Origin: a virus
Length of the DNA stretch: 64,000 bases
Direction: 5' to 3' (one strand)
IMG/VR virus record: IMGVR_UViG_3300002231_001563
Span: 32,001-96,000 of that record
In this document: in pieces, positions 1 to 64,000 of the stretch
Numbering within the stretch: the stretch's first letter is position 1
Layout: each line of letters opens with the position of its first letter
Program-made: the position numbers and the translations under genes
Notes under the pieces: model-generated
Told to the model about the DNA's origin: nothing
The model's database searches: none
What the model saw: only the letters and a program-made list of their open reading frames with translations

Positions 1-2
1 TG

Positions 3-491
3 CGAGACGAATGTAAAATTTGGCTTATTACAGTCTTGGATAAATTTAAACCAGAAAAAGGATCGAAAGCCTTTTCATATTTTTCTGTTATAACCAAAAA
101 CTGGTTTATTCAGAAGGTAAAGAAAAATAAGAAAAGCCGCCAACGAGAGATAGAGTTGGGCGAATTGTCCAAGGAATTGGAACAAAAATATATTTCTATT
201 GAAAATGAATATGATGATCTAAGGGAGAAGGACGAATTTTGGCAACATCTTTGGAAGGAAATAGACACCTGGGACACCGATAAGTTAAAAGAAAATGAAA
301 AGAAAGTTCTCGAAGCTGTAAAAATCCTCCTAAACTCCCCAGATGATATCGAAATTTTTAATAAGAAAGCTATTTATTTGTATATGAGAGAAATAACGGG
401 CCTCAATACTAAGCAAATTGTTAACTCTTTAAACAAAATGCGAAAAAAATACAAGACATTTAAAAATAAGTGGGACCGGGGAGACGCATGA
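3..491 (+). CDS. Late-transcription sigma factor, T4 gp55-like (5'-truncated)
   Basis: Frame is open from position 3 (RDECKIWLITVLDKFKPEKGSKAFSYFSVITKNWFIQ), so the TTG at 36 is internal. The D-K-F/Y-x-P-x-K-G-x-K-A-F-S-Y-F block resembles sigma region 2 of gp55-type phage sigmas. Confidence 0.6.
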   Translation, partial: RDECKIWLITVLDKFKPEKGSKAFSYFSVITKNWFIQKVKKNKKSRQREIELGELSKELEQKYISIENEYDDLREKDEFWQHLWKEIDTWDTDKLKENEKKVLEAVKILLNSPDDIEIFNKKAIYLYMREITGLNTKQIVNSLNKMRKKYKTFKNKWDRGDA

Positions 492-494
492 TAA

Positions 495-785
495 ATGAAA
501 GAGCTAGAAAAATATATTCAAGAAGTTACTGATAACATTCGCGAAGACCGCCGCGTCACCAGGCGACTACTAGATGACGTAATGGTATACCTCAGCAAGA
601 GTGAGGAGCGTCACCGCGAAGTAGGTATCACAGCGGCAAAATATGTAGAAACTCTTCAGCGCTCTAATGAGCAGCTTGTAAAAATCGCATCTTTGTTACA
701 ACGAAAGAGCACCAAGCAAACGGGCCTCACCGACGATGACAAAAAAGATATCTTCGATCTTTTACAGGGAGACGTCCCTGAATGA
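495..785 (+). CDS. Hypothetical helical protein
   Basis: 96-aa ORF tightly packed between sigma and hub genes; ATGA overlap with next gene. Confidence 0.7.
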   Translation: MKELEKYIQEVTDNIREDRRVTRRLLDDVMVYLSKSEERHREVGITAAKYVETLQRSNEQLVKIASLLQRKSTKQTGLTDDDKKDIFDLLQGDVPE

Positions 786-2485: not shown

Positions 2486-2494
2486 GAATAAGAA

Positions 2495-3451
2495 ATGAAA
2501 AAAGAGACAAGAAAAGCACGAATATTAGAAAACCTACCAGATGACTATAAATCTGTCCCGGGCGAAGTAAATACTAGAAATCCATCCGCCGGCCTCAATG
2601 TCAATAATATAGTGGAACCAGTACCCTCATATATTAGAGGCGCTTCAGAGGTAGTCTTAAGCAATCCCAATAACGCTTGGATCATTTTAGGCCGCGACCG
2701 ACCATCATCCCGCGTAAGTGGGTACGGAGGAGCAGGCGGAACCCAATGTGCTTCTATTGATTTAGTAGTGGGGAGGATGTCTTCTACGGAAGGAGGTCCG
2801 AGGTCGGGAGCATATGTAGATCCCAATTTTGAATCGGATGCTGCTCGTATCTATGTTAGTCAGAAAACAGATATTGATAAGAATTTTAATCTTGTTGCCG
2901 GAAATGTAGGCACCTCCAAGGCTAAGTCTGGAATCGGCATTAAAGCAGATGGCGTTCGTATTGTGGGCAGGGAGGGGATAAAATTAGTAACCAATACTGA
3001 TCCTAAAAACTCCCAAGGTGGAAAAATTAAAACTACTTATGGTATTGACTTGATCGCCGGTAATGATGATTCTAAACAAAAAGTCAAAGGAAAGCCTTTT
3101 GGAGACAAAGTGGATTTTTTGCAGCCAATTGTGAAGGGAGATAATCTGACCGACGCCCTGTCCGAAATGGCTGATCAAATAGGAGATTTAGCGACTAGAT
3201 TCAATGAGTTTGCTAAAAATCAGGTAAAATATAATGCGGCCCTTGCAACCCACATACATCCCCACCCAATGGGTCCTACCCTGCCTTCTATCGAGCTGAC
3301 TCCTACTTATTTGCAGGTAAATACTCAACAATTTGTCAATTCTTTGGCGACAGATTGGTCCCAGCACGTCAATTTATCTAATTTTAAGAACAACTATTTA
3401 AAACCTTATGGAGATAGGTGGGTGTGCAGCCGGTATAACAGGACAACCTAA
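2495..3451 (+). CDS. Baseplate central spike protein (gp5-C / gpV-like)
   Basis: Beta-rich Gly/Ile repeats (IGIKADGVRIVGREGIKLVT), C-terminal HIHPH (HxH apex motif), and position upstream of gp25/gp6. Confidence 0.55.
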   Translation: MKKETRKARILENLPDDYKSVPGEVNTRNPSAGLNVNNIVEPVPSYIRGASEVVLSNPNNAWIILGRDRPSSRVSGYGGAGGTQCASIDLVVGRMSSTEGGPRSGAYVDPNFESDAARIYVSQKTDIDKNFNLVAGNVGTSKAKSGIGIKADGVRIVGREGIKLVTNTDPKNSQGGKIKTTYGIDLIAGNDDSKQKVKGKPFGDKVDFLQPIVKGDNLTDALSEMADQIGDLATRFNEFAKNQVKYNAALATHIHPHPMGPTLPSIELTPTYLQVNTQQFVNSLATDWSQHVNLSNFKNNYLKPYGDRWVCSRYNRTT

Positions 3452-51912: not shown

Positions 51913-51946
51913 ACCCCTTCACAATTTGTGAAGGGGTTTTGTGTTT
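51913..51946 (+). terminator. Rho-independent terminator after MCP
   Basis: 11-bp stem ACCCCTTCACA / TGTGAAGGGGT followed by TTTGTGTTT. A second 8-bp hairpin TATAAAGC-CCA-GCTTTATA lies at 51880-51898. Confidence 0.8.
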
Positions 51947-51952
51947 CTAAAA

Positions 51953-51960
51953 ACTACTTA
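51953..51960 (+). promoter_or_regulatory. Candidate late promoter motif ACTACTTA
   Basis: Just after the MCP terminator and 19 nt before the neck gene ATG, where re-initiation would be needed. Confidence 0.55.
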
Positions 51961-51979: not shown

Positions 51980-53248
51980 ATGGCTTTCCCTACCCTAACG
52001 CCCGCTAGTCAGGCAAGTAAATCAATTCTATCCCCAACTGGAACTGTTGCAGATGTCGCCGCATCCCTCCCTCTGGCCGTATATTCGAACTCTGACCCCT
52101 TTCTATCGGGTGCAGCCTCTCAGGTCGCCTATACTTACAGGAAATTGGGGGGAGATGTCCTTGATATCGAAATTAAGCCCGAGAATGTGTATGCTAATTA
52201 TCAAGAGGCAGTATTAGAATATAGCTATTTGGTGAACGTCCATCAGTCTAAAAATATGTTGTCGGATGTCCTCGGTCAGGCCACAGGAACTTTCGACGAA
52301 GACGGTCAATTAGTGACAGGCCCTACTGATGTTAATCTAAAATTCCCCCGGGTGATGTTTGAGTACGCCCGCAGGGTATCCGACTCTTTCTCATTTGAAG
52401 CCAATGTAGGGGGAACCATTCCCATCTATTCGGCATCGTTTACACTCAATAAGGGACAGCAAGATTATAATCTTCAGGCCATTATTTCTGGAAGTTCCGC
52501 TGCGGGAACTGGCTCGACCGGAACAACTGTGCCCTACGCCGGAGTGGTTGGGGACAAGAGAGTGATAATTAAAAAGGTGTATTACAAAACTCCGGCGGCA
52601 ATGTGGCGGTTTTTTGGGTATTTCGGCGGTCTTAACGTCGTGGGAAATCTTAATTATTATGGACAATACACTGATGACTCTACGTTTGAGTTAGTGCCAA
52701 CATGGCAAAATAAACTCCAGGCCATGGCATATGAGGACAATATTTATACTAGGCTTTCTCAATATTCGTATGAATTAGAAAACAATCATTTGAGAATCTT
52801 TCCAATGCCAGAACTTTTGAGCACATATAGACATATGTGGGTAGATTTTTCAGTGATTCCTAATAGTTGGGATAATCCGCCAGACTATGATGCCGGCGTC
52901 GATGGCATCAACAATATCAACACCCTCCCTTTTGATAACATTCCCTATGAGAATATAAATGCTATTGGGAAACAATGGATTCGCCGATTTGCTCTGGCCC
53001 TATCTAAGGAAACTTTGGGGCAAGTACGAGGCAAATTCCAGACGGTCCCTATTCCGGGGGAATCCGTCACTCTGAACGCCGCCGAACTTCTCGGTCAAGC
53101 GCAGGCTGAACAAGAGGCATTGAGGGAGGAACTGAAGACAATTCTCGATGAATTGACATATACGGCCATGGCCAAATCTGACGCTGAAAAGGCAAATGCG
53201 GTAGAAGATATTCAAAAGAAGGTACCAACCTTAATTTTCCAGGGGTAA
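51980..53248 (+). CDS. Neck protein (T4 gp13-like head-tail adaptor)
   Basis: Follows MCP; YRKLGGDVLDIEI....Y...QEA..EY and WIRRFALALSKETLGQVRGKF..VPIPG..VTLN..EL are gp13-like motifs. Confidence 0.8.
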   Translation: MAFPTLTPASQASKSILSPTGTVADVAASLPLAVYSNSDPFLSGAASQVAYTYRKLGGDVLDIEIKPENVYANYQEAVLEYSYLVNVHQSKNMLSDVLGQATGTFDEDGQLVTGPTDVNLKFPRVMFEYARRVSDSFSFEANVGGTIPIYSASFTLNKGQQDYNLQAIISGSSAAGTGSTGTTVPYAGVVGDKRVIIKKVYYKTPAAMWRFFGYFGGLNVVGNLNYYGQYTDDSTFELVPTWQNKLQAMAYEDNIYTRLSQYSYELENNHLRIFPMPELLSTYRHMWVDFSVIPNSWDNPPDYDAGVDGINNINTLPFDNIPYENINAIGKQWIRRFALALSKETLGQVRGKFQTVPIPGESVTLNAAELLGQAQAEQEALREELKTILDELTYTAMAKSDAEKANAVEDIQKKVPTLIFQG

Positions 53249-53254
53249 TAAGAG

Positions 53255-54124
53255 ATGAGTAGTAAGAAAGAAGACTTCGATGAATTTCGTCCATATTACC
53301 CTCCTGCCCCAGCTAAGGAAAAGGTTCCCCTCAAAGAAGTTACCCTCATGCCATCGACGGTGGAGACGATCGATTTTGCTTTGAGCGATTGGCTCGAAGA
53401 AGATATGGATATTTATTGCACTACTAACGAGGGGTGGAAAAAGGTACCCATCGTCTGGTCAATGCCGGAAAGAGCATTTCAGGTTAAAGACAATAAAGAT
53501 TTAAGAAACAAAGATAACATTTTCACTTTTCCAGTAATGAGTGTGGAGCGAACCTCCCTCATTAAGGATCCGAACATGAAGGGAGTAGCATGGGCTCATA
53601 TTCCTCGCTATAATGACCCTCGCGGCGGCGCCATAACTGTAGCTCGGCGCATTCAACAAGAGAAGAGCGCGAATTTTGCAAATGCCGGAGCAAAAAGACG
53701 ATTTAATCAACCCACCTTTCCTTATGATAATAAGAAAGTGGTATATGAAACGATAACGATGCCCGTTCCGACCTATGTAGTGGCAAATTATAAAGTCACT
53801 ATTCATACGGAATATCAGCAACAAATGAATGAAATTTTCACTCCTTTTATGACTGCAACCGGGCAAATAAACAACTTTTTTATCACCCGTGACGGCCATA
53901 AATTTGAGGGGTTCATTCAGGATGATTTTTCTTTAGAAAATAATTTGTCCAATTTGGGCGACGAAGAGAGAGAATTTAAAACTATCATTAACTTGAAAGT
54001 TCTAGGTTATCTAATCGGCTCGGGCAAAAATGATAGCCAACCCAAAATTACCACCCGCGAGACAGCAGCTGAATTTAGATTCACCCGCGAGCGAGTGATG
54101 CTTGGCGATAAAAAGGACTATTAA
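53255..54124 (+). CDS. Tail completion/terminator protein (T4 gp15-like)
   Basis: KVPIVW..PER; P.MSVERT; MPVP.Y....Y.VTI.T....QMNEI resemble gp15. Confidence 0.6.
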   Translation: MSSKKEDFDEFRPYYPPAPAKEKVPLKEVTLMPSTVETIDFALSDWLEEDMDIYCTTNEGWKKVPIVWSMPERAFQVKDNKDLRNKDNIFTFPVMSVERTSLIKDPNMKGVAWAHIPRYNDPRGGAITVARRIQQEKSANFANAGAKRRFNQPTFPYDNKKVVYETITMPVPTYVVANYKVTIHTEYQQQMNEIFTPFMTATGQINNFFITRDGHKFEGFIQDDFSLENNLSNLGDEEREFKTIINLKVLGYLIGSGKNDSQPKITTRETAAEFRFTRERVMLGDKKDY

Positions 54125-54127
54125 TGA

Positions 54128-55033
54128 ATGGCAGATAATAAATGGACAAAGCCTACAAATCCCCCTCCCCCCTTATTCCTGGGAGAGAAGGAGCGCGATT
54201 TAGTTAAACAAGTCAATGACGAACTCTTGGAACGCGTCATTGGTCAGGCTATAACCTATCTCCCTTTATCCATGGAATATACTAATTTTCACCCCCTCTA
54301 TGGTGAAGCCATAGAGAAATCCTTTCTGCCTCCTGTTCGAGTTTACGCACTAGTGGAATTTGACGGAATTGGAACTATGACTTCCGATTATGGCCTTGAT
54401 AAGACCTACTCTATTGTAGTGCGCTTTCATGAACGCCGACTGCAGGAAGATCAGAATTTATATGTGAGAGAGGGTGACTATGTACAATATGGGTCTTCCT
54501 TTTTTGAAATCGTTAATCTTACCGAAGATCGCCAATTATTTGGCCAAGTAGAACACCTTTTTCAGATCGAAGCGCAATGTGTGCGAACCCGGAAAGGACT
54601 AATCGACTTCCAGGTGCTTTCAGAGGAAGTTCAACGTGCGGCCATTGCCAATGCCACGGCCATGGCAGCCCCCGCTGCACCCGCCGAGGAGCCGCCCGCC
54701 CCCGCTCCCGAAGCACCGGAGCCATATGAAGCGGCCCAGATTGTGTACGAGGCATCAGACCCCGACTCGGAGGTCGCGGGCGTTATTGCCACTCCTATTG
54801 CAGAAGGCGAATCCATCAATGATCTCTTTGGCATCGCCGAAGGAACTGAGCTGGACCTGAATACTATGATGATTTTCCAGAATGGTCTGTTGCAATTAGT
54901 AACTGAGACTGAGGGAGTGGGAGATTTTTATTTAAATGAAGATAATGAAATTATTTCTAATGGGGATTTAGCCCCCGGCACAACGCTGGTAGTGATATTT
55001 TTATCGGCTATCATGTCTTATTTTGGAGCGTAA
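54128..55033 (+). CDS. Neck/head-closure protein (T4 gp14-like) with Pro/Ala linker and extra C-terminal domain
   Basis: E.DL...N.EL.E..IGQ...YLP....HPLYGE...K.F and REGD.V pattern; extension after about aa 170. Confidence 0.6.
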   Translation: MADNKWTKPTNPPPPLFLGEKERDLVKQVNDELLERVIGQAITYLPLSMEYTNFHPLYGEAIEKSFLPPVRVYALVEFDGIGTMTSDYGLDKTYSIVVRFHERRLQEDQNLYVREGDYVQYGSSFFEIVNLTEDRQLFGQVEHLFQIEAQCVRTRKGLIDFQVLSEEVQRAAIANATAMAAPAAPAEEPPAPAPEAPEPYEAAQIVYEASDPDSEVAGVIATPIAEGESINDLFGIAEGTELDLNTMMIFQNGLLQLVTETEGVGDFYLNEDNEIISNGDLAPGTTLVVIFLSAIMSYFGA

Positions 55034-56245
55034 ATGAGTACTTTTCGAGAGCATAAAACAAGCGCAGATCGTTCAGCAGCCGACCGCAAAAGGCATAAAT
55101 CAAAAATTGAAAAAGCCCTCCGAGAAGGAATAAAAGATGTAGTAGCTGACGAATCTATTATAGGTCAGGATGGAAAAAAGAAAGTAAAAATTCCAGTCAA
55201 AGGAATTAAAGAATACCAGTTTGTATATGGAGATAATTCTCAAAATCAAAAAGCCGGCGCCGCCGGAGATAAAAATGTCAAAAAAGGACAGGTTTTGCGC
55301 AAAAAGGGCCGCTCACGCCAAGCCCAGGCGGGCGAAAAGGGCTCAGATAAGGTAGGCGAAGAATATTATGAGGTGGAAATTACCCTCGAAGAACTGGCGG
55401 AATATTTATTTGCTAATTTAGAACTTCCAGAATTGGAGAGAAAGAAGCTGCGCTTCCTAAAAGACAAGAAGCTACGCCGAAGTGGTTATAGAAAGAAAGG
55501 GATGCGTTCTAGGTTATCGAAGAAAGAGACTCTCAAACGAAAGATTCGGCGCCGCAAAAAAGCTGAAGCCAATGGGACATGGGATCCCGAATCTGGCGAA
55601 CGTTTTCCGTTTCATGAAGACGATTTAAAATATAAACATATGAAAGTAAAGAATAAAGAAAGCAGTTCGGCAGTTATTTTTTTCCTCATGGATGTGTCTG
55701 GCTCCATGGACAAAAATAAAAAATATATTGCTCGTAGTTTTTATTTTTTGTTGTATCAATTTCTGCGCTATAAGTACGAGAATATTGAGGTTGTTTTTAT
55801 CTCTCATTCCACTGACGCCAAGGAGGTAACGGAAGAAGAATTTTTCCAAAAAGCCACCACAGGGGGCACCATCATGTCTAGCGCCCTAGAATTAGAAAAA
55901 GAAATTATCTCCAAGCGATATCACCCGTCGAGTTGGAATATTTACACATTTTATACTGGAGACGGTGAAAACTGGACCACGGATAATAATAAGACGGTAA
56001 AACTCCTTAACGAACTTAAAGAAATAAATCAGATGATTTGTTATGCGGAAATTAATCCTTTTAGGAATCCGGAGTATGATGCTGATTTCGGCCGGAATTT
56101 TGGATATTCTCCAGACGCCGATCCCAACTCTTTGTGGTCTCGGCTCCTGCCACATCTTTCAGATAAATTTAAGGCAGTTAAACTTATGAGTCCCAAACAT
56201 ATTTGGCCCTCATTTCAGAAGATATTCGGAGGCATTACCCCATGA
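55034..56245 (+). CDS. yeaH: YeaH/YhbH (DUF444) VWA-domain protein
   Basis: D..RH..KI..AL...I.D.V..ESII..DG...VKIP...I.EY (YhbH-type N-terminus); ITLEEL...LF..LELP.L; MIDAS DVSGSM, GGT.MSSAL, GDGENW. Confidence 0.9.
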   Translation: MSTFREHKTSADRSAADRKRHKSKIEKALREGIKDVVADESIIGQDGKKKVKIPVKGIKEYQFVYGDNSQNQKAGAAGDKNVKKGQVLRKKGRSRQAQAGEKGSDKVGEEYYEVEITLEELAEYLFANLELPELERKKLRFLKDKKLRRSGYRKKGMRSRLSKKETLKRKIRRRKKAEANGTWDPESGERFPFHEDDLKYKHMKVKNKESSSAVIFFLMDVSGSMDKNKKYIARSFYFLLYQFLRYKYENIEVVFISHSTDAKEVTEEEFFQKATTGGTIMSSALELEKEIISKRYHPSSWNIYTFYTGDGENWTTDNNKTVKLLNELKEINQMICYAEINPFRNPEYDADFGRNFGYSPDADPNSLWSRLLPHLSDKFKAVKLMSPKHIWPSFQKIFGGITP

Positions 56246-57549
56246 AGAAAGTAACAATCAAAGAATTGCGTAAGTACGATAAAGAAATCTGCGATATCGC
56301 AAAAGAAAAATATGGTCTCGACTGGTTCCCTATTGAATATGAGATATTAGATTATAAAGAAATGTTGGGTGCCATGGCCTACACAGGCCTACCTACTCAC
56401 TATCGCCACTGGTCCTTTGGAAAATCATTTGAACGCACAGCTACCCGCTATAAATTAGGCATGGAAGGCCTGCCCTATGAAATGATCATTAACAGTGACC
56501 CCAGTATCGCTTATCTCATGCTTGAAAATCCCATGAGTATTCACTTACTTACGATGGCTCACTGTGTGGGCCATTCGGACTTTTTTAAGAATAACCGCAT
56601 GTTTCGGGAAACTGATCCTCAAAACATTTTAGCGCGCTTTAAGTCCGCATCAAAAAGGGTGCAAAAATATATTGAAGATCCCAACATTGGTATCGAGGCT
56701 GTGGAGATGATATTGGATGCGTGTCATGCTATTCAGTATCAGGTACCCCGCACACCCAATATCGCCCGCGACAGGCTGAGGGAAATGCTGGATGTAGCCA
56801 AGCGCCTAAAGCGGGAAAAAAATGACGACCTCCTTTTAGAAGAAGATAGCATGAAAGATTATAATTTACTAGCTTTTATAAGAAAGAATGCCCGAAATTT
56901 AGAAGATTGGCAAAGAGATCTGATGGAGATGGTGGAAAGAAGGGCGAAATATTTTATCCCCCAAGCCCGAACTAAGATTATGAACGAGGGGTGGGCAGTC
57001 ACTATACATGAAAAGATCATGAACGATCTTAAGCTCGGAGATGAATACCACCTTGGATTTTTGAAGACTCATAATCAGGTAGTTCGACCTATTGTGGGGA
57101 GAGTTAATCCCTATCATTTGGGATACACTATCTTTAAAAAAATCGAAAAAGAACATGGATTTGAAGAATGTAAGTTAGTTCGCGAGACTCAAGATGATGA
57201 AAGTTTTATACGAAAATATTTAGACGAAGAGTTGTGCCGAGAGCTAAATTTATTCAGCTACAGCTATAGTCAGCGCACAACAAATTATTCTATTGATGAT
57301 ATTTCTGATAAAGAAGGGTGGAAAAGCGTCAGGAGCGCCCTAATTAAGAACGTAGGGCTTAACTCCGTCCCGATTGTCTATGTGAGTGGATTTAATAAGA
57401 AAATGCAAACACTTTATTTAAAACATGAACACGACGGCCGCGACCTGGAGTTGGGTTATGCGAATAAAGTATACGACCATATTAGATATTTATGGGATGA
57501 CGATATTATTTTTACTTCTATCATAGAAGGGGAGCTTTGGGAATTTTAA
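56242..57549 (+). CDS. spoVR: SpoVR/YcgB family protein
   Basis: ATG 56242 overlaps the yeaH TGA and has a GGAG RBS. Motifs GLPTHYRHWSFGK, YEMIINSDP.IAYL, AHCVGHSDFFKNN, TKIMNEGWA, NPYHLG and LYLKHEHDGRDL. Confidence 0.93.
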   Translation: MKKVTIKELRKYDKEICDIAKEKYGLDWFPIEYEILDYKEMLGAMAYTGLPTHYRHWSFGKSFERTATRYKLGMEGLPYEMIINSDPSIAYLMLENPMSIHLLTMAHCVGHSDFFKNNRMFRETDPQNILARFKSASKRVQKYIEDPNIGIEAVEMILDACHAIQYQVPRTPNIARDRLREMLDVAKRLKREKNDDLLLEEDSMKDYNLLAFIRKNARNLEDWQRDLMEMVERRAKYFIPQARTKIMNEGWAVTIHEKIMNDLKLGDEYHLGFLKTHNQVVRPIVGRVNPYHLGYTIFKKIEKEHGFEECKLVRETQDDESFIRKYLDEELCRELNLFSYSYSQRTTNYSIDDISDKEGWKSVRSALIKNVGLNSVPIVYVSGFNKKMQTLYLKHEHDGRDLELGYANKVYDHIRYLWDDDIIFTSIIEGELWEF

Positions 57550-57550
57550 A

Positions 57551-59491
57551 ATGACAGATTCAAAAACAAATAAATTTATGAACATTGCGGAAAAGCACAA
57601 GAAGGCAACCAAGAGAAAGAAATTCTCAGGCACCTTCGCAGATTATCTCAACTTGATTGAGGAAGATCGGAGTATTGTGGATCTGGCCCACAAGCGGCTT
57701 TATAAAACCATTTTAGGGGAGGGAGTTACGAAGCTATCCCCCGAAGACCCGCGTTGCGCCAATCTATTTAACAGCGAAACCCTAAAAACTTATGATTATT
57801 TTCAGTCTAAGTTTTTTGGCATGGAGCGCCCCCTGGCTAAGGTGATGCGATATTTGCATTCTGCGGCCCTCAAGGGTGAAGAGAGTCGACAAGTTTTACT
57901 ACTTCTCGGGCCCGTAGGTGCAGGAAAGTCGGCCCTCGTGGAGCACATCAAGCGCGCCTTAGAGGCGTCTGGTCCACTCTACCAACTCAAAGATTGCCCC
58001 ATTCAGGAAGAACCAATTCACCTTATTCCACGCGGACTCCGCGAAGAATTCAAGAATATATATGGTATTCGTGTTGAGGGGGATTTATGCCCGGTATGCC
58101 GCCATCGTCTCTTAGAGGAATATGGAAGCAACTATATGGATTTCCCGGTTGTAGAATCGTCTTTTTCTATTCGCGCTCGACGCGGAGTGGGGGTTGTTCC
58201 ACCTATGGACGCCAATACCCAGGATACAAGCATTCTAATAGGGTCAGAAGACATTTCAAAGCTCGACCTATACCCAGAGGACGACCCCCGCGCGCTAAGC
58301 CTTAACGGGGCGTTTAACGTGGGAAATCGCGGAATTGTAGAGTTCGTCGAGGTATTCAAAAATGAGATCGAATTTTTACACACCATGATTACTGCAACTC
58401 AAGAAAAAGCAGTTCCCAGTCCAGGAAAAGGGGCCATGATTTATTTTGATGGAGTTATTCTGGCTCACTGTAATGAGGCTGAGTGGAATAAGTTTAAGTC
58501 TGAAAACACCAACGAAGCTATTTTGGATCGTATCGTCCGCGTGAATGTTCCTTATTGCCTGGAAGTGGAAGAAGAACAGAAAATTTACAATAAATTACTC
58601 AGTGAGTCGGATTTTGATTCTCACATTGCCCCCCACACTTTGGAGATCGCAGCCATGTTTTCAGTGTTGAGTAGACTAAAGCCCTCAAATAAAGTCGATC
58701 CTATTACTAAGATGAAGATATATAATGGCGATGAGATCGTTGAAAAGGGATATATTAAGAAAATTGATATTAATGATTTGAGAGAGGAAGTCCGCGATGA
58801 GGGGATGACCGGCATTTCGACTCGCTTCATTATGAAGGCTATTGATGCAGCGCTGGCCGATTCAGAGAAAGCTATGGTCACTCCCATCTCCATCCGCGAC
58901 GCCCTCATCAAACAAGTAAAAGAGCAAATTGTTGTTGAAGATTTGAGAGAAAAATATCTCTCCTTTTTACAAAAAGAACTTCACGATGAATACTTGAAAA
59001 TTTTAGAGACGGAAATTACGAAAGCTTTCGTTTCTGCCTATCAAGAGCAGGCAGAATCTCTCTTTGATAACTATTTGGACCATGCCGAGGCTTATGTCAA
59101 TTCGAGCAAGGTAAAAGATACGATTACGGGAGAGGAGATGGTACCCGATGAAGAATTCCTTTGCTCCATTGAAGAGCAGATAGGAATTGTAGGCGCCGCA
59201 AGAGAAAACTTCCGAGCAGACATCACAGCTTATATGTTTGCTAAACTGCGCCGCAAAGAGAAGATTGATTGGACTTCTTACGGGCCACTGAAAGAAGCGA
59301 TAGAGACAAAGCTCTTAATGTCAGTGCGTGATATATCTCGAATTGTAACCAAATCTAAGTCTCGCGACAAAAAACAACAGCAGAAATATAGTGAAATGGT
59401 AAAGACCCTCATTGAGGATTATGGATACAACGAAGATTCAGCCACTGAAATTATTAAATATGCTTCCAATAATCTATGGCGCGACAGCTAA
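57551..59491 (+). CDS. prkA: PrkA/YeaG family AAA+ ATPase (serine protein kinase family)
   Basis: 646 aa; LLLGPVGAGKS (Walker A); CPIQEEP.HL; NRGIVEFVE.FK; AHCNEAEW; EAILDRI...VPY.L; EGMTGISTRF. Confidence 0.95.
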   Translation: MTDSKTNKFMNIAEKHKKATKRKKFSGTFADYLNLIEEDRSIVDLAHKRLYKTILGEGVTKLSPEDPRCANLFNSETLKTYDYFQSKFFGMERPLAKVMRYLHSAALKGEESRQVLLLLGPVGAGKSALVEHIKRALEASGPLYQLKDCPIQEEPIHLIPRGLREEFKNIYGIRVEGDLCPVCRHRLLEEYGSNYMDFPVVESSFSIRARRGVGVVPPMDANTQDTSILIGSEDISKLDLYPEDDPRALSLNGAFNVGNRGIVEFVEVFKNEIEFLHTMITATQEKAVPSPGKGAMIYFDGVILAHCNEAEWNKFKSENTNEAILDRIVRVNVPYCLEVEEEQKIYNKLLSESDFDSHIAPHTLEIAAMFSVLSRLKPSNKVDPITKMKIYNGDEIVEKGYIKKIDINDLREEVRDEGMTGISTRFIMKAIDAALADSEKAMVTPISIRDALIKQVKEQIVVEDLREKYLSFLQKELHDEYLKILETEITKAFVSAYQEQAESLFDNYLDHAEAYVNSSKVKDTITGEEMVPDEEFLCSIEEQIGIVGAARENFRADITAYMFAKLRRKEKIDWTSYGPLKEAIETKLLMSVRDISRIVTKSKSRDKKQQQKYSEMVKTLIEDYGYNEDSATEIIKYASNNLWRDS

Positions 59492-59610
59492 ATAAAAATT
59501 AAAAACTCTTTTTTATAAAATAAGTGTCATAAATACGGTATTTTATCGATACTTTTATCAATAAAATAGGTTTTTTTTGCTTTTGGTGAAAGTGGGGTCT
59601 ATCTACGGGC

Positions 59611-59647
59611 GAACAGGTCTGTCCGCAGACCACGTTCACGTTTTTTT
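59611..59647 (+). terminator. Hairpin plus U-tract, probable terminator after prkA
   Basis: GAAC-A-GGTCTG-TCCG-CAGACC-AC-GTTC followed by ACG and T7. Confidence 0.55.
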
Positions 59648-59740
59648 CAAAAATCGAGGTTTTTGTAAAGGACATATTTTCTTTTTTCAAGGAGGAAATA
59701 ATATGAAAATAAATCACAACAATAAGGGAGGACTAGCATT

Positions 59741-62700
59741 ATGGCTATAATTTCAAAATACCTTTTTGCAGGTACCTTCCAAGATTCTGTGGGTACAGTT
59801 CATGGAACGGCAAACGGAGGCATGGATGCTAGTGCCACCGATGGCGACCGAACCGTAGCTGTATTCGACGGAACCGATGATTACATTGATTTGGGTAGTG
59901 ATTTTCGCTTCAACACTGAAGACTTCACCTTTAGCATGTGGATCAAGCCACAATCCTCTCAGCAAGACTGGGCCAGGATTATGGGTACCTTGTACAATGA
60001 TCCAATTAGAGGCTGGGGTTTCGAACAAGAAGCGGGACAAACTAACAGATATAGGTTCCAATCATTTGATGGAAGCACTTGGACCGAGTCTGACGCGAAC
60101 AATGTACTTGAAATCACTCCTGATGTATGGTCTCACCTAGTTATTACTAGGTCTGGAACAGCCATTAAGGGGTACATAAACGGACAGCATGTGTACACGG
60201 CAGTGACACACGCTACGATGGATAGCACTCACAACTTTCAGTTGGGTACCAACCCCGCAGTCTCTCAGAATAACTGGGGCGACTATTGGGCCGGCTCAAT
60301 TGACGAATTCACAGTTCATGATGTAGCCTTGTCCGATGGGGAAGTGGAAACTTTGTACGACAATGATCCACTCACTCCGGTCACCGTTTCTTTGACCTTT
60401 GAAATGGTCGATTCCTACGGCGACGGCTGGAATGGGTCCACATTCCAGATATACGATGATGCAAATGTTACAGTCCAATCACTGACTCTGGCAGGCGGAG
60501 CGGGCCCCGAAGTGGTCTCGTTCGAACTTCCGGAAGGTGATTACACTTGGGCATTTGTGAGTCAAAATTGGATGAGCGAGGTTACGGCCACACTCACTAA
60601 CACAACAGCGGATCCTGACGAGCAGATACTTTTCAGTTCGGGTGGGAATTTATTGAGCGGAGCTTTTACTCTCTCGTTGCCCTTCCCGTCGATTTCGCCA
60701 ACTCTCGAAACGAGCGCTGGTGATATCACTATCTCTGTCACTCTCAATGATCTTGCTGTCAGTGCAGGCGCAACCGGCTGGGCATATTCATTGACGGATA
60801 TTTTCGTCGATGGCCAAGCCCACGGCGGCACTGCAGTGGCACTAGGAGCAGACGCAACAGTGAGCCCTACTCCGCATGGCGAACATGCTGTATATGTAGC
60901 AGCTATCGACACCAACGGACTTGTAGTGGTCAAGAATCAGGCCAGTATTAATAATACACCCCCCATAGAGGTAACGATTGTAAAGTCTGACTCTTACAAC
61001 GACTCGTGGGATGGCACAGTTCTTGAGATCCGCAATGCCGGCGACAACGCCCTGGCGCATTCTTCCACATTGGCCTCCGGAGCATCTCCCGAAACCATTT
61101 ATGTGGATTTAACTCCAGGTGATTATACTTGGGCTTTGGTGGGAGGAGGATATCCAGAGGAACATTCTGTGGATATCACACGTTCAAGCGACGGCCTTGC
61201 CTTAGCTTCGAGCGCAGCTTCTGTTCCGTCTAATGGTTCATTTACTCTAGCAGCACCCGGCCCATCCATTTCAGTGGATTCGACCACACAGCTGAATGGA
61301 GAAGTGACCATGGCAGTTTCGGCAAATGCTTTAGCAATCGCTGAAGGCGCAACCCACTGGGCTCACCAGGACGCTACGCCATTTGTCTTAGGAGCAACGC
61401 ACAGTGGAGCTACCAGCCTTTTGGCTGCCACTAGCACCGAGACATATGCTTCTGCGGGAGTAGAAACAATTCACGTCGCCGCCTTGGATGGCGCCGGGAC
61501 TGTTCTTGCTATCTCTAGTGTAGATGTGGACATATGGCTTCCCAAGGTGGCCATAGATGATGAATTTATCCTCACTACTTATTTGGACCACCCGTCAATT
61601 CCAGGCACTGGGGCCCATCCTCTTCTCGATGAAGATAATGAGCAATGGGGTCCTTTCTGGATCGGAGAACTTACAGTTAAATCTCTGTCAGTAGATTCTC
61701 AAGATGAGTCTACTATAGAGCAGGCTGTGACCTTTGATGATGGATCAGGCGGAACCCTGGATCTAGATTGGTTGATAAAGCAACTAATTATCAAAAACAA
61801 ATTGCACGAATTGAGCGGACCTCACGCCACTGCCGGCGCTGTGTTCAAATCAATTATAGATGGTACTGCGGCATTTGATGCAGCCGACCTACTCTCATGG
61901 AACGCTGAAGATACTCACACCATTCTCACGCCGGCTTCGCCGAGTGGATGGTCAGCAGACTATGATTTGCAGTTGTTTTCCGATAGTGGAACTACTACTC
62001 TTATCGAATATGCTTCGGGCACCGGTACGGTTAGTGGGCCCAATGGCGCAGGAAATGTAGCATATCTTTTCGCCGCCGACTTCGAAGTGGCCGCAGACCC
62101 GACCGCGCAACACCCTAGAGGTGCTGCAGACGCCCAATACGACCTGTCAAGCGATGGGGCGGATAGTGTGGGGTCGAATGACGGTACTCTATTCGGAGAT
62201 CCACAATTTGGACTAGAAGATGGTCGAGGATTTATTACCCTCGACGGTACAGGGGATTATGTGAGAGTTCCCCACGACGCGTCTAATAATTTTGGAGATC
62301 CAAGCCAGAACTTCACTATAAGTTTCTGGTTTAAAACGGATGCTGATTACAGTATTCTGTCGAAAGGGCGCCCATCTTCAGCAAGCGATTTCTGGGGCTT
62401 CTATATAGACGCGGGCCGAATTGTGTTCCGAGCTTGGGATCAAGGGCCAGACGCGGCATATACCGCAACCAGTGAAACCGATACTTTCACCGATAATTTG
62501 TGGCACCACGTAGTTGTTTCACACGACTCTGGTACGGCATATTTATATGTGGACGGAAATTGTGAAGCTTCTGTGGAATTAACTCAGAATCATTCCAATA
62601 GTGATTATCTCACTATCGGAGCCTATTTCAATTATTCTTGGGGTGACAATTACTTCACCGGGGATATTTCAGACGTCCGTTTGTGGACTTCAGAAAGTTC

Positions 62701-64000
62701 TTGGCTTAATGTCACGACCATGTACCAGGAAGGAGTTCCCTCGTCTCTCGGGGCATCGACTTCTGTTTCTGGCGACGACGTAACTATCTCTGTTTCGCCC
62801 AATCTAAATGCTATCGCAGATGGCATTGTAGCATGGGCTTATTCAGTGGACACTCCTTTGGGTGCAGTAGGGAATCCTCACGGTGGAACTGCGGCGGTAC
62901 TTGGGAATAGTGAAGTAGTGACGGTTGCAGTAGGACAGCATGATATCTATGCTGCGGGAATTGATGCATCTGGAAATGTGGTTTTACCACAATCTCAAGT
63001 GTCTATCGATACAACTCCCATGGTAACCCTGAGGTTTGATTGGTACGCTGATCACTGGAGCGGTTTTAACTCCAGGACTTTCGAGCTATTGGATTCAGGG
63101 GATAATATAGTCCACTCCGTCTCACCTGCTTCCGCAGGCGCAGGCACAGAGAATATTACTATCCCCCAGGATACTTATAAATGGCAGGTTGTAGCTTATC
63201 GTAACGACTATAAGGATATCGAGAACCACGCGCAAGCAACGTTCCAGGTCTGGCAGATTGACATCGATGAGTATGGTTCTGACTTTCTCTTGCTAGAGAA
63301 GGGATCAGATCTGGATGGAAATCCAGGACCCTTCGTCGCACAAGCGAATAACGGAGGTTATGGCAACATAATGCAAGGCCCGCACAACATAGTTCTTCCA
63401 AGGCCGCCTGAACATGAAAACCTCACGGTTCCAGTTTGGGAAGCAGGAAAAACATACCAGTGGGCAAACTGGCAATCAGAACAGAATGTGACGGATTATG
63501 GAGGGTATGTTGATTTCTCACTTAGTGTAGACATCGATGATCTTCCTTTCGCCCCAGGTGGGCTACCATCTGCTGGTGCCATCACACTAGTTGTTGATGG
63601 AATCGATATCAGCGGTGCACCCTTTGCTGACAGGACCCTTATCTACACTTATACAGGTCTAGATAATCCAGGCTCTCTGTACGATGGGGCCACATTGCAG
63701 ACGATTAACGGCAACGCGGCAAGCCCACTTGAGGAGAATTTCTGGAGAATACACCAGTTAAGCAATTATGACTTCGATGGGTCGGATAATGTGACGGATA
63801 ACGTAATTATATCTTTGCAGCCGGGTTTTCCGAATATTGCAACTCCAAATCCAGCAAGGCCAATGCCTGGCTTATTACAGCCTGGAAGTAATCTTGTCAT
63901 TAAGGCACTCCTAATCACCTCTGCTGGGGTAGATTATGACGTCTTGGCAAACATTAAATACTCCAGTTCCTTGACTAGTCAAGCTGTTGATGTAGTCTCT
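59741..64000 (+). CDS. Large modular LamG/adhesin-like protein (3'-truncated, >1420 aa)
   Basis: Translated by hand: ATG 59741 with AGGGAGG RBS, open to the window end. LamG domains (FTFSMWIKP..WSHLVIT..GYING..GSIDEF; FTISFWFKT..WHHVVVS..LYVDG..GDISDVRLW), DSYGDGW-type modules and three WAY..HGG..AA.D..G.V repeats. Confidence 0.9.
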   Translation, partial: MAIISKYLFAGTFQDSVGTVHGTANGGMDASATDGDRTVAVFDGTDDYIDLGSDFRFNTEDFTFSMWIKPQSSQQDWARIMGTLYNDPIRGWGFEQEAGQTNRYRFQSFDGSTWTESDANNVLEITPDVWSHLVITRSGTAIKGYINGQHVYTAVTHATMDSTHNFQLGTNPAVSQNNWGDYWAGSIDEFTVHDVALSDGEVETLYDNDPLTPVTVSLTFEMVDSYGDGWNGSTFQIYDDANVTVQSLTLAGGAGPEVVSFELPEGDYTWAFVSQNWMSEVTATLTNTTADPDEQILFSSGGNLLSGAFTLSLPFPSISPTLETSAGDITISVTLNDLAVSAGATGWAYSLTDIFVDGQAHGGTAVALGADATVSPTPHGEHAVYVAAIDTNGLVVVKNQASINNTPPIEVTIVKSDSYNDSWDGTVLEIRNAGDNALAHSSTLASGASPETIYVDLTPGDYTWALVGGGYPEEHSVDITRSSDGLALASSAASVPSNGSFTLAAPGPSISVDSTTQLNGEVTMAVSANALAIAEGATHWAHQDATPFVLGATHSGATSLLAATSTETYASAGVETIHVAALDGAGTVLAISSVDVDIWLPKVAIDDEFILTTYLDHPSIPGTGAHPLLDEDNEQWGPFWIGELTVKSLSVDSQDESTIEQAVTFDDGSGGTLDLDWLIKQLIIKNKLHELSGPHATAGAVFKSIIDGTAAFDAADLLSWNAEDTHTILTPASPSGWSADYDLQLFSDSGTTTLIEYASGTGTVSGPNGAGNVAYLFAADFEVAADPTAQHPRGAADAQYDLSSDGADSVGSNDGTLFGDPQFGLEDGRGFITLDGTGDYVRVPHDASNNFGDPSQNFTISFWFKTDADYSILSKGRPSSASDFWGFYIDAGRIVFRAWDQGPDAAYTATSETDTFTDNLWHHVVVSHDSGTAYLYVDGNCEASVELTQNHSNSDYLTIGAYFNYSWGDNYFTGDISDVRLWTSESSWLNVTTMYQEGVPSSLGASTSVSGDDVTISVSPNLNAIADGIVAWAYSVDTPLGAVGNPHGGTAAVLGNSEVVTVAVGQHDIYAAGIDASGNVVLPQSQVSIDTTPMVTLRFDWYADHWSGFNSRTFELLDSGDNIVHSVSPASAGAGTENITIPQDTYKWQVVAYRNDYKDIENHAQATFQVWQIDIDEYGSDFLLLEKGSDLDGNPGPFVAQANNGGYGNIMQGPHNIVLPRPPEHENLTVPVWEAGKTYQWANWQSEQNVTDYGGYVDFSLSVDIDDLPFAPGGLPSAGAITLVVDGIDISGAPFADRTLIYTYTGLDNPGSLYDGATLQTINGNAASPLEENFWRIHQLSNYDFDGSDNVTDNVIISLQPGFPNIATPNPARPMPGLLQPGSNLVIKALLITSAGVDYDVLANIKYSSSLTSQAVDVVS

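What the first reader, a model, noticed from the sequence alone, without database searches (positions are those of the whole stretch)
55034..59491. Complete phage-borne YeaH-SpoVR-PrkA (VWA / SpoVR / AAA+) three-gene system
Seen: three full-length, uninterrupted ORFs (403, about 435 and 646 aa) with intact Walker A/B, Arg-finger region and MIDAS residues, flanked by phage neck genes and a phage-type LamG gene. Established: prkA(yeaG), yeaH(yhbH) and spoVR(ycgB) are a conserved cellular trio linked to stationary phase, nitrogen starvation and sporulation, with unresolved biochemistry. Inference: the phage either reprograms host dormancy/starvation physiology, or uses the trio as an AAA+/VWA remodelling machine for virion assembly (precedent: the MoxR AAA+/VWA pair of Acidianus two-tailed virus). 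This is the best candidate for an undescribed system in the window.
Basis: partly seen in the sequence, partly recalled or inferred. Interest (0 to 1): 0.9.

Follow-up and report, generated by a model that had tools for sequence, protein, structure and literature searches.

The report
Phage-borne YeaH-SpoVR-PrkA protein-turnover module
An uncultured 168-kb marine T4-like phage carries intact copies of a bacterial three-gene starvation module (YeaH, SpoVR, PrkA), probably to break down or remodel proteins late in infection. Other phages, including isolates sequenced since 2006, already carry this trio, so this is a well-supported example and not a new kind of system.

Summary
yeaH is 55034-56245, spoVR is 56242-57549 (ATGA overlap) and prkA is 57551-59491. 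All three are intact, with strong Pfam matches and conserved Walker A and MIDAS motifs. They form the 3' half of a six-gene unit behind the major-capsid terminator.

The trio is not a recent passenger. At least 77 IMG/VR phage contigs keep the same order, and their PrkA forms one phage-only clade. The nearest cellular trios share 55-59% PrkA identity and always have the order prkA-yeaH-spoVR.

It is not new either. Thermus phages (phiYS40, 2006), Ralstonia phage RsoM2USA and several huge phages captured the trio independently. PHROGs holds all three families, and this scan has noted phage trios about 32 times on other DNA.

New here:
- The SpoVR model has a zincin-like fold, with H-x-x-G-H plus Glu but no catalytic Glu.
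- YeaH has a VWA/MIDAS fold.
- The YeaH N-terminus is predicted to dock on SpoVR (score 0.84, best control 0.00).
- A phage promoter-like motif, AAACTAYTTA, precedes the unit.

Best reading (about 45%): a late-expressed ATP-driven protein-turnover machine that recycles host protein, by analogy with E. coli YeaG/SpdA. Virion-assembly and host-regulation readings remain open. Verdict: new member of a known kind, moderate interest.

The parts
51913..51937 (+). Intrinsic terminator after the major capsid gene gp23 (11-bp stem followed by a T-run)
   Evidence: Found by the terminator scan. The hairpin and T-run are conserved at the same place in 10 close relatives.
51951..51960 (+). Promoter-like phage motif AAACTACTTA, about 20 nt before the first gene of the six-gene unit
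   Evidence: AAACTAYTTA occurs 4 times in the window, all on the + strand, against 0.41 expected. GAAACTAnTTA followed by AGGAGG and ATG is conserved in 10 relatives. The same motif lies 12-26 nt before yeaH in 15 of 64 more distant loci. That it acts as a late promoter is inferred.
51980..53248 (+). Head-tail adaptor-like gene, first gene of the unit
   Evidence: Matches phrog_211 (head-tail adaptor Ad2), E 1.6e-11. Syntenic in the 12 closest loci.
53255..54124 (+). Unknown gene (289 aa), probably co-transcribed
   Evidence: ORF. No Pfam or PHROG match. Conserved in the 12 closest loci.
54128..55033 (+). Unknown gene (301 aa); its stop codon abuts the yeaH ATG
   Evidence: ORF, with a 0-nt gap to yeaH. 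Fast-evolving: dN 0.38 against close relatives.
55034..56245 (+). yeaH/yhbH (DUF444). A conserved N-terminal tail is followed by a C-terminal VWA/MIDAS domain.
   Evidence: PF04285, E 3e-108. The MIDAS motif is conserved. The AF2 model matches VWA domains by Foldseek (best E 5e-7, 159 hits at E <= 1e-3).
56242..57549 (+). spoVR/ycgB. A zincin-like N-terminal domain carries H107-x-x-G-H111 and E249.
   Evidence: PF04293, E 1e-117. AF2 model: pLDDT 82, pTM 0.81. All top 50 VIA-align hits have the zincin fold, Z up to 11.9. The residues are universally conserved.
57551..59491 (+). prkA/yeaG/spdA. An AAA+ ATPase is joined to a kinase-like C-terminal domain.
   Evidence: PF08298, E 7e-145, and PF06798, E 5e-79. 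Matches solved structure 9xip, E 8e-100. Walker A is conserved. It is the slowest-evolving gene of the unit (dN 0.12, against 0.16 for gp23).
59586..59647 (+). Terminator-like hairpin plus U-run in the 250-nt AT-rich spacer after prkA
   Evidence: The RNA fold of 59490-59700 has z-score -3.58, and a U7 run follows the stem. The simple terminator scan did not flag it.

Best explanation
The three genes form one ATP-driven protein-turnover or remodelling machine. An ancestor of a large clade of marine gp23-type phages captured it as a block from bacteria and permuted the order to yeaH-spoVR-prkA. The clade has kept it under purifying selection.

Proposed mechanism:
1. PrkA, a hexameric clade-III AAA+ protein with a pore loop, supplies unfolding or translocating force.
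2. YeaH is its VWA/MIDAS adaptor, as in other AAA+/VWA pairs. Its conserved N-terminal tail holds SpoVR.
3. SpoVR, a zincin-like metal-site protein, is the effector or the regulated partner.
4. The operon is transcribed from a phage promoter-like motif together with the virion genes.
5. Late in infection the machine degrades or remodels bulk host cytoplasmic protein. This frees amino acids and energy for virion synthesis in nutrient-poor hosts. It would be the phage counterpart of YeaG/SpdA-dependent starvation-induced protein degradation in E. coli.

Shown here: gene integrity, conservation, phylogeny, operon layout and folds.
Inferred: physical assembly (predicted only), late timing (motif only), and the substrate and physiological role (by analogy).
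For: - Integrity and family membership.
- Tight coupling: gaps of 0, -4 and +1 nt.
- Conservation: the trio has the same order and strand in 77-80 of 80 IMG/VR loci at 62-86% PrkA identity, across at least 5 different genomic contexts.
- Phylogeny: phage PrkA is monophyletic (SH-aLRT 100). All three proteins are closest to one cellular clade (PrkA 55-59%, YeaH 41-49%, SpoVR 38-44%), which has the order prkA-yeaH-spoVR in 69 of 69 loci.
- Selection: dS is saturated and dN is low. PrkA evolves more slowly than the capsid protein.
- Recurrence: other phage lineages made at least 4 further independent captures.
- Neighbours in most relatives are a GroEL-like gene, PIN-PhoH and NUDIX.
- Folds: YeaH is VWA/MIDAS, like NorD and Rea1. 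SpoVR is zincin-like with a conserved H..H..E triad.
- Operon signals.
- Literature: yeaG, yeaH and ycgB are mutually the most cofit genes in six bacteria (10.1101/072470). YeaG is required for bulk starvation proteolysis (PMC13684143). Pure PrkA lacks protease activity but is a pore-loop AAA+ protein that oligomerises with ATP, which implies a partner (PMC13001217).
Against: - No expression or proteolysis data exist for any phage copy.
- The host is unknown, so whether it has its own trio is unknown.
- SpoVR lacks the catalytic Glu of HExxH, so it may be a non-catalytic pseudo-peptidase.
- The role of yeaH and ycgB in E. coli bulk proteolysis was not reported in PMC13684143 (neither word occurs).
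- The B. subtilis PrkA protease claim (PMC9512850) is contradicted for the B. anthracis protein.
- gp23 relatives that are complete or nearly complete lack the trio (G006 100%, G007 88%). It is therefore dispensable for this kind of phage.
- In this sub-clade the trio sits in the neck operon, and a chaperonin-like gene neighbours it elsewhere. Both facts fit an assembly or proteostasis role equally well.
Confidence: 0.45

Rival explanations
1. Virion-assembly or proteostasis helper. The AAA+/VWA/SpoVR machine acts on the phage's own proteins. It would fold, disaggregate, process or quality-control capsid, neck or fibre proteins made in bulk late in infection. This would resemble other AAA+/VWA remodelling pairs.
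For: - In the window and its 11 closest loci the trio is the 3' half of the unit that starts with an adaptor-like gene, directly behind gp23.
- The same promoter-like motif precedes structural genes and, in other sub-clades, yeaH itself.
- In 37 loci a divergent GroEL-like gene follows prkA.
- The window's own genome also encodes a true Cpn60.
- The YeaH fold matches MIDAS partners of remodelling AAA+ proteins.
Against: - The neck-operon position is confined to one sub-clade. Elsewhere the trio sits far from gp23.
- Unrelated phages with different virion types captured the trio independently.
- The cellular module has no link to virions.
- gp23 relatives assemble without it.
Confidence: 0.2
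2. Targeted reprogramming of host physiology. The machine removes or remodels particular host regulators or defence proteins, such as factors of the stringent or RpoS-type stress response, dormancy or sporulation. This would keep a starving host productive or block dormancy-based escape. It would not act as a bulk recycler.
For: - The cellular trio is tied to stationary phase, nitrogen starvation and sporulation, with species-specific phenotypes (10.1101/072470; PMC9512850; PMC13001217).
- In relatives its neighbours are PhoH and NUDIX, which are typical host-takeover or starvation genes.
- Many phage lineages captured it independently.
Against: - Host takeover would be expected early, but the motif shared with structural genes suggests late expression.
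- No match to any known defence or anti-defence family.
- No specific target is known even in bacteria.
Confidence: 0.2
3. Ser/Thr protein-kinase signalling. PrkA phosphorylates host or phage proteins, and YeaH and SpoVR are accessory signalling parts. This is the classical annotation.
For: - The Pfam PrkA C-terminal 'serine protein kinase' domain matches at E 5e-79.
- Older reports of YeaG/PrkA kinase activity are cited in PMC13684143 and 10.1101/072470.
Against: Two independent studies found no autophosphorylation or kinase activity. They also report degenerate Hanks motifs and a missing P-loop in the C-terminal domain (PMC9512850; PMC13001217).
Confidence: 0.07
4. Non-functional passenger, host contamination or assembly chimera.
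For: - Some gp23 relatives lack the trio.
- The listed contigs do not bridge the spacer downstream of prkA.
- One GenBank 'phage' record (LAU1) carries yeaG-yeaH only as probable host flank at its end.
Against: - The genes are intact and under purifying selection.
- The phage-only clade has its own gene order.
- Phage-type regulatory motifs flank the unit.
- Independent assemblies from other samples span the upstream and internal junctions.
- Composition matches the rest of the contig.
Confidence: 0.03

Closest known systems
Cellular PrkA/YeaG(SpdA) - YeaH/YhbH (DUF444) - SpoVR/YcgB module. The nearest subtype is found in MAGs labelled Bdellovibrionota, Oligoflexia, Binatia and Acidiferrales.
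   Same: The same three Pfam families, domain architecture, Walker A, MIDAS and SpoVR H..H..E residues. The yeaH-spoVR adjacency is kept, with tight coupling. All three phage proteins are closest to this one cellular clade.
   Different: - Gene order is cyclically permuted: yeaH-spoVR-prkA in the phages, prkA-yeaH-spoVR in 69 of 69 cellular loci.
- Identity is only 55-59% (PrkA), 41-49% (YeaH) and 38-44% (SpoVR).
- The phage copies form a separate clade on a long stem.
- The unit is driven by a phage motif inside a virion-gene unit, not by a stress sigma factor.
Trios of isolated and assembled phages: Thermus phages phiYS40, TMA, MN1 and Lalka; Ralstonia jumbo phage RsoM2USA; huge phages LR745206, LR756502 and LR756511
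   Same: A complete DUF444 + SpoVR + PrkA set in a lytic tailed phage. The Thermus phages share the yeaH-spoVR-(x)-prkA order.
   Different: These are independent captures. Thermus-phage PrkA groups with the Bacillus/Thermomicrobium type. RsoM2USA and two huge phages fall inside the proteobacterial YeaG clade and keep the bacterial order. Identity to the window is 30-35%. No paper found here treats the trio as a system.
MoxR-type AAA+/VWA remodelling pairs
   Same: An AAA+ ATPase is encoded next to a VWA/MIDAS protein. The YeaH model matches NorD and Rea1 MIDAS domains by fold.
   Different: PrkA is not a MoxR/AAA_5 member: the AAA_5 match scores 17.9 bits, below the cut-off of 22. PrkA carries an extra kinase-like domain. 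A third obligatory partner, SpoVR, is present. The comparison concerns how it works, not membership.
FtsH/Yme1-type AAA+ zinc proteases
   Same: A clade-III pore-loop AAA+ protein (PMC13001217) working with a zincin-fold domain (SpoVR model).
   Different: - The two parts are separate polypeptides bridged by a VWA protein.
- There is no M41 domain.
- The first His of the SpoVR motif is not followed by Glu (H-C/V/A-x-G-H), so catalysis, if any, is non-canonical.

Membership tests
PrkA/YeaG-YeaH-SpoVR module | PrkA with the AAA_PrkA (PF08298) and PrkA C-terminal (PF06798) domains above the gathering score | tested here: met
   483.1 and 266 bits, against a cut-off of 25 for each.
PrkA/YeaG-YeaH-SpoVR module | Intact Walker A and Walker B ATPase motifs in PrkA | tested here: met
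   GPVGAGKS and the EFVE region are conserved in 78 phage copies and align with E. coli, Bacillus and Thermomicrobium PrkA.
PrkA/YeaG-YeaH-SpoVR module | DUF444 (PF04285) partner with a VWA fold and a MIDAS motif | tested here: met
   362.9 bits against a cut-off of 27. DxSxS...T...D is conserved. Foldseek gives VWA hits with E down to 5e-7.
PrkA/YeaG-YeaH-SpoVR module | SpoVR (PF04293) partner | tested here: met
   393.9 bits against a cut-off of 27. SpoVR_C scores 25 bits, just under its cut-off of 27.6.
PrkA/YeaG-YeaH-SpoVR module | Canonical operon order prkA-yeaH-spoVR | tested here: not met
   The order is yeaH-spoVR-prkA in the window and in all informative IMG/VR loci. It is prkA-yeaH-spoVR in 69 of 69 cellular loci. 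The order is a cyclic permutation that keeps the yeaH-spoVR adjacency. Gene order is a typical feature of the family, not a strictly defining one: in E. coli ycgB is unlinked.
PrkA/YeaG-YeaH-SpoVR module | The three proteins act together (cofitness or a physical complex) | tested here: inconclusive
   Only a prediction is available. YeaH-SpoVR scores ipSAE 0.84 against a best control of 0.00. That mark was reached by 58 of 80 solved complexes and 2 of 110 mismatched pairs. The runs agree in at least 93% of contacts, and the partner pLDDT is at least 84. The counts hold only roughly, because my own alignments were used. PrkA contacts were not tested.
PrkA/YeaG-YeaH-SpoVR module | Role in starvation or stationary-phase protein turnover or sporulation | not testable with these tools
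   This needs infection experiments. The literature covers cellular copies only.
MoxR (AAA_5) AAA+/VWA chaperone pairs | The ATPase belongs to the MoxR/AAA_5 family | tested here: not met
   The AAA_5 match is E 0.0031, 17.9 bits, below the cut-off of 22.
Lon/FtsH AAA+ proteases | A protease domain (Lon_C S16 or M41) on the same polypeptide as the AAA+ module | tested here: not met
   PrkA has no peptidase Pfam family at E <= 0.01. PMC13001217 reports no protease active site and no protease activity in pure PrkA.
Zincin (clan MA-like) metallopeptidases, for SpoVR | Zincin fold | tested here: inconclusive
   All 50 listed VIA-align matches are zincin-fold proteins, with Z 6.3-11.9 and 108-201 aligned residues. 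Foldseek found nothing at E <= 0.001, and Z in this range can occur by chance for helical models.
Zincin (clan MA-like) metallopeptidases, for SpoVR | HExxH motif with a catalytic Glu | tested here: not met
   The conserved motif is A-H107-(C/V/A)-x-G-H111, with no Glu after the first His in phage or cellular SpoVR. A third conserved acidic residue lies in N-E249-G-x-A.
Hanks-type Ser/Thr protein kinases | Match to a canonical kinase domain, and kinase activity | tested here: not met
   There is no Pkinase family match; only the PrkA-specific PF06798 matches. Kinase activity is absent in two studies of cellular PrkA.

The most novel reading that the evidence does not exclude
SpoVR is the missing hydrolytic, or substrate-gating, component of the YeaG/SpdA bulk-proteolysis system. 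It would be a non-canonical zincin whose cleft is occupied or completed by the invariant N-terminal tail of YeaH and powered by the PrkA unfoldase. A large clade of marine phages, and several other phage lineages independently, would use this machine late in infection as an autophagy-like auxiliary gene set that turns host proteome into virions in starved cells.
Probability: 0.15. Interest if true: 0.85.

Novelty: new member of a known kind. Interest (0 to 1): 0.5.

Why it matters
The PrkA-YeaH-SpoVR module is one of the most widespread bacterial gene sets whose mechanism is still unclear. In 2026 its ATPase was tied to starvation-induced bulk protein degradation in E. coli.

Large phages have captured the complete trio at least five times, and one abundant marine lineage has kept it for a long time. 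This suggests the three proteins are a self-contained machine that works in foreign cells and is useful when resources are scarce.

Phage copies therefore offer two things:
- A compact, portable version for reconstitution. This report adds a concrete structural hypothesis to test: the YeaH tail docked on a zincin-like SpoVR.
- A candidate new class of auxiliary metabolic function, amino-acid recycling from host protein, alongside the known recycling of nucleotides and phosphate.

It is not a new kind of system. Its value lies in making an open question testable.

Tried and rejected
- T4-type late promoter TATAAATA: 13 matches, but only one on the + strand and that one inside a gene. Rejected as the control element.
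- The sigma-70 promoter scan gave no more hits than shuffles.
- The search for related loci on genome contigs with two PrkA alignments failed for lack of a conserved stretch. A single protein, P0123, worked.
- The listing of cluster members gave no useful names for the nearest representatives.
- PADLOC found no defence-family match.
- Foldseek of the SpoVR model against PDB found nothing at E <= 0.001.
- Profile searches of YeaH and SpoVR against PDB sequences gave only marginal hits.
- The ESM Atlas gave no usable hit for SpoVR.
- dN/dS could not be computed because dS is saturated; only dN is reported.
- Metatranscriptome run X9: contigs lie on gp23 and on the LamG gene, with almost none on the trio. 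These are contigs of relatives, so nothing can be concluded about expression.
- The downstream spacer 59655-59721 is not bridged by the listed contigs of X2-X4. It is an AT-rich, hairpin-rich stretch, and this is not evidence of a chimera.
- Trio presence on the MCP tree needs at least 3 changes as drawn, but well-supported branches do not force more than one origin. Vertical descent with losses cannot be told apart from transfer among phages.
- Enterobacter phage LAU1 was set aside as probable host flank, because YeaG and YeaH lie at the record's end.

Full report
**Observation**

The window is bases 32001-96000 of an IMG/VR virus record of 167,580 bp, estimated 92% complete. Three uninterrupted + strand ORFs lie at the stated coordinates.
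- 55034-56245 (403 aa) is DUF444/YeaH (PF04285, E 3e-108).
- The next ORF is SpoVR (PF04293, E 1e-117, plus SpoVR_C just under its cut-off).
- 57551-59491 (646 aa) is PrkA (PF08298, E 7e-145; PF06798, E 5e-79).

The listed TTG start of spoVR at 56203 is probably wrong. prkA starts 1 nt after the spoVR stop, and yeaH starts directly after the stop of the preceding gene.

The context is a T4-like virion block: TerL, gp20 portal, gp21 protease and gp23 capsid upstream, an adaptor-like gene (phrog_211), and a giant Laminin_G_3 protein downstream. Base composition is uniform across the region.

**Is the assembly real?**

Contigs from other samples and studies lie on the stretch with 0-3 differences.
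- One from seawater run X2 spans 52883-55381, across the neck-gene/yeaH junction.
- X2 55699-57463 and X3 55151-56898 cross yeaH/spoVR.
- X3 57303-58969 and X4 57204-57729 cross spoVR/prkA.
- The listed contigs do not bridge the AT-rich spacer after prkA (59655-59721).

**Operon layout**

A strong terminator (51913-51937) follows gp23. Then comes the motif AAACTACTTA (51951-51960), a ribosome-binding site and the adaptor-like gene. From 51980 to 59491 six genes are packed with gaps of 6, 3, 0, -4 and 1 nt.

After prkA lies a 250-nt AT-rich spacer. It holds a hairpin at 59586-59639 followed by a U-run; the fold z-score is -3.58.

The arrangement of terminator, GAAACTAnTTA, AGGAGG and ATG is conserved in all ten close relatives. 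The same motif (AAACTAYTTA or AAAGTATTTA) lies 12-26 nt before the yeaH ATG in 15 of 64 more distant loci, where the trio stands in other contexts. In the window AAACTAYTTA occurs four times, all on the + strand, against 0.41 expected. The core ACTATTTA occurs 12 times against about 2 expected, several times 30-40 nt before virion genes. T4's TATAAATA is not used on this strand.

I read the motif as this phage group's promoter for virion-class, probably late, genes. That is an inference from position only.

**How widespread, and from where?**

A scan of IMG/VR found 149 viral contigs with a close PrkA relative. In the best 80 (62-86% identity), yeaH, spoVR and prkA are present in the same order and strand wherever the contig reaches far enough: 77, 79 and 80 of 80 loci.

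Five of the distant records (132-293 kb; two estimated 100% complete, one of them with terminal repeats) all encode gp23-type capsid proteins, far from the trio.

The flanks fall into at least five different syntenies. The gp23/neck context of the window is shared by only 12 loci. The commonest context has a NUDIX hydrolase and a helicase upstream. Downstream it has a divergent 441-aa GroEL-like protein (phrog_5725, E 1e-13), a 156-aa unknown and a PIN-PhoH protein.

Outside this clade, PrkA identity drops sharply to 41% or less, apart from a few representatives at 50-56%. Those representatives lie on cellular-looking contigs with the order prkA-DUF444-spoVR. Their relatives are in MAGs labelled Bdellovibrionota, Oligoflexia, Binatia, Acidiferrales, Udaeobacter and others. 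In 69 of 69 such loci the order is prkA-yeaH-spoVR. All three window proteins are closer to this clade than to Thermomicrobium, Bacillus or E. coli:

| Protein | This cellular clade | Thermomicrobium | E. coli |
|---|---|---|---|
| PrkA | 55-59% | 40% | 33% |
| YeaH | 41-49% | 37% | 32% |
| SpoVR | 38-44% | 35% | not found |

In trees the marine-phage PrkA sequences are one clade (SH-aLRT 100, stem 0.43), with more internal divergence than the multi-phylum cellular sister group. The simplest history is one capture of the whole operon, a cyclic permutation that kept the yeaH-spoVR adjacency, and long retention.

Against ten close relatives, synonymous sites are saturated. dN is 0.12 for prkA, 0.20 for spoVR and 0.25 for yeaH, against 0.16 for gp23. 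This indicates purifying selection, strongest on PrkA.

The trio is not universal among gp23 relatives. Five records with 59-63% capsid identity lack PrkA, including a 100%-complete 185-kb genome and an 88%-complete one. On a capsid tree the carriers sit in at least three places. Supported branches do not force more than one origin.

**Not new in phages**

A protein search of GenBank phages found PrkA in 17 records.
- By Pfam, Thermus phage phiYS40 (sequenced 2006) has DUF444, SpoVR, an unknown gene and PrkA in that order.
- MN1 has DUF444-SpoVR-PrkA.
- Ralstonia jumbo phage RsoM2USA has PrkA-DUF444-SpoVR.
- The huge phages LR745206 and LR756511 carry the trio in the bacterial order. In LR756502 prkA and yeaH were found but no SpoVR ORF.
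- In the trees these sequences fall in separate places, among the Bacillus/Thermomicrobium type or inside the proteobacterial YeaG clade. That makes at least four or five independent captures.
- Enterobacter phage LAU1 carries yeaG-yeaH at the very end of a 30-kb record, probably as host flank.

PHROGs already holds all three families as 'unknown function'. The RsoM2USA paper lists SpoVR and PrkA separately and does not treat them as a system (PMC8504454). I found no paper on the phage trio as such.

This scan has noted phage trios before: 32 notes in at least 30 genomes. They include the permuted order, a late-type motif and the GroEL-like neighbour.

**What the proteins look like**

PrkA:
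- It matches a solved structure deposited as 'serine protein kinase' (9xip, E 8e-100).
- The Walker A, EFVE and NEAILDR regions are conserved in 78 phage copies.

YeaH:
- The MIDAS pattern is conserved in 73 copies.
- The AF2 model (pLDDT 72) matches VWA domains. The best E is 5e-7 and 159 matches have E <= 1e-3. They include the MIDAS partners of AAA+ machines, Rea1 and NorD.

SpoVR:
- It has no solved relative by sequence.
- The AF2 model is confident (pLDDT 82, pTM 0.81).
- Foldseek found nothing.
- An exhaustive structural comparison returned only zincin-fold proteins in its top 50: DUF885, M1, M3, M32, M4 thermolysin, M48 and YbeY, with Z 6.3-11.9 over residues 1-337. Z in this range is not decisive for a helical model, but the uniformity of the list is notable.
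- Residues conserved in every SpoVR lineage examined are H56-W57, A-H107-x-x-G-H111, (N/H)-E249-G-x-A and N-P-Y. This looks like a zincin-type metal site without the catalytic Glu. Earlier notes of this scan reached the same 'pseudo-zincin' reading on other DNA.

A complex prediction for YeaH with SpoVR passed the tool's mark.
- The score is 0.84 and the best of three controls is 0.00. That mark was reached by 58 of 80 solved complexes and 2 of 110 mismatched pairs.
- The runs agree in at least 93% of contacts, and the partner pLDDT is at least 84.
- The counts hold only roughly, because my own alignments were used.
- No similar complex is solved by sequence, so the pass is unlikely to come from memory of a solved structure.
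- The contact runs from the invariant N-terminal tail of YeaH (residues 1-24 and 58-89) onto SpoVR residues 55-61, 105, 151, 155, 162-167, 283-292, 335-354 and 395-413. This lies along the side of the putative metal site.
- This is a model's confidence, not a measurement.

**What is known of the cellular module**
- yeaG, yeaH and ycgB are each other's best cofitness partners in six bacteria (10.1101/072470).
- B. subtilis PrkA was reported as a slow ATP-dependent protease and not a kinase (PMC9512850).
- Highly purified B. anthracis PrkA has no protease activity. It is a clade-III pore-loop AAA+ protein and oligomerises with ATP (PMC13001217).
- E. coli YeaG, renamed SpdA, is required for RpoS-dependent, largely nonspecific degradation of cytoplasmic proteins in carbon starvation. 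That degradation supplies amino acids and ATP (PMC13684143). The paper does not mention yeaH or ycgB.

**Explanation**

Together these results point to a three-part ATP-driven machine. PrkA is the motor, YeaH is the VWA adaptor that holds SpoVR by its tail, and SpoVR is the effector or a regulated pseudo-enzyme.

For the phage, my best reading (about 45%) is that the unit is made together with the virion genes. It would then turn over host cytoplasmic protein to feed virion synthesis in nutrient-poor cells.

The same data allow other readings:
- A proteostasis or assembly role on the phage's own proteins (about 20%). The neck-operon position here, the late-type motif and the chaperonin-like neighbour elsewhere favour it. 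The variable position and the captures by unrelated phages count against it.
- A targeted attack on host stress or dormancy regulators (about 20%).
- Kinase signalling (about 7%).
- A passenger or artefact (about 3%).

**Verdict**

This is a well-documented further member of a known kind, the phage-borne PrkA-YeaH-SpoVR trio. It adds the size and age of the marine clade, the permuted order, the shared promoter-like motif, and a structural hypothesis for the YeaH-SpoVR pair. Interest is moderate (0.5). It would rise sharply if SpoVR proves to be the missing hydrolase of the SpdA pathway, or if phage-driven host proteolysis is shown.

Noticed in passing
L040:11938-13263 (and 36 other related loci, directly downstream of prkA): A 441-aa protein with only a weak PHROG match to GroEL (phrog_5725, E 1e-13) and no Pfam match follows the trio in 37 of 80 related phage loci. 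After it come a 156-aa unknown and a PIN-PhoH fusion. It may be a fourth, phage-specific partner of the module.
   Followed up: partly
G000:C1 about 142.2-143.8 kb (locus L176:850-2427), outside the window: The window's own phage genome encodes a full-length true chaperonin (Cpn60_TCP1, PF00118, E 2e-67, 526 aa), and a PhoH at about 16.1 kb (L177).
   Followed up: partly
window 3030, 40584, 49066, 51951 (AAACTAYTTA); also 25168, 31513, 45372, 48273 (ACTATTTA): A + strand motif is enriched about tenfold, often 20-40 nt before virion-gene starts, and is conserved in relatives. It is probably this phage group's promoter for virion-class genes and replaces T4's TATAAATA.
   Followed up: partly
G004:C1:176509-178137 and 178501-180120 (loci L261, L262): A 293-kb trio-bearing phage genome with terminal repeats has two tandem gp23-type capsid paralogues.
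   Followed up: no
Proteins P0128, P0130, P0132, P0149, P0167, P0169 (representative search): PrkA homologues of 1000-1573 aa carry a large insertion or an N-terminal extension. One cluster is named from a Ktedonobacteraceae MAG. These may be fused or expanded forms of the module.
   Followed up: no
Loci L167-L175 compared with L097-L161 (PrkA tree): Cellular PrkA sequences from MAGs assigned to very different phyla (Acidobacteriota-like, Binatia, Verrucomicrobiota, Eisenbacteria, Bdellovibrionota) differ by very short branches. The cause is either extreme conservation or recent horizontal spread of this subtype.
   Followed up: no
window 59741-64000 (open at the window's end): A giant structural protein (more than 1419 aa) has two Laminin_G/ConA-like lectin domains. 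One also matches the neurotoxin receptor-binding N-terminal domain family (PF07953, E 4e-7), which here means a lectin-like jelly-roll fold. It is probably a fibre or decoration protein.
   Followed up: no
L092 (MN688132.1, positions 1-3308): The record of Enterobacter phage LAU1 begins with yeaG-yeaH of enterobacterial type, next to tail-fibre and cor genes. This is probably host flanking DNA of a prophage and not a phage-borne module.
   Followed up: no
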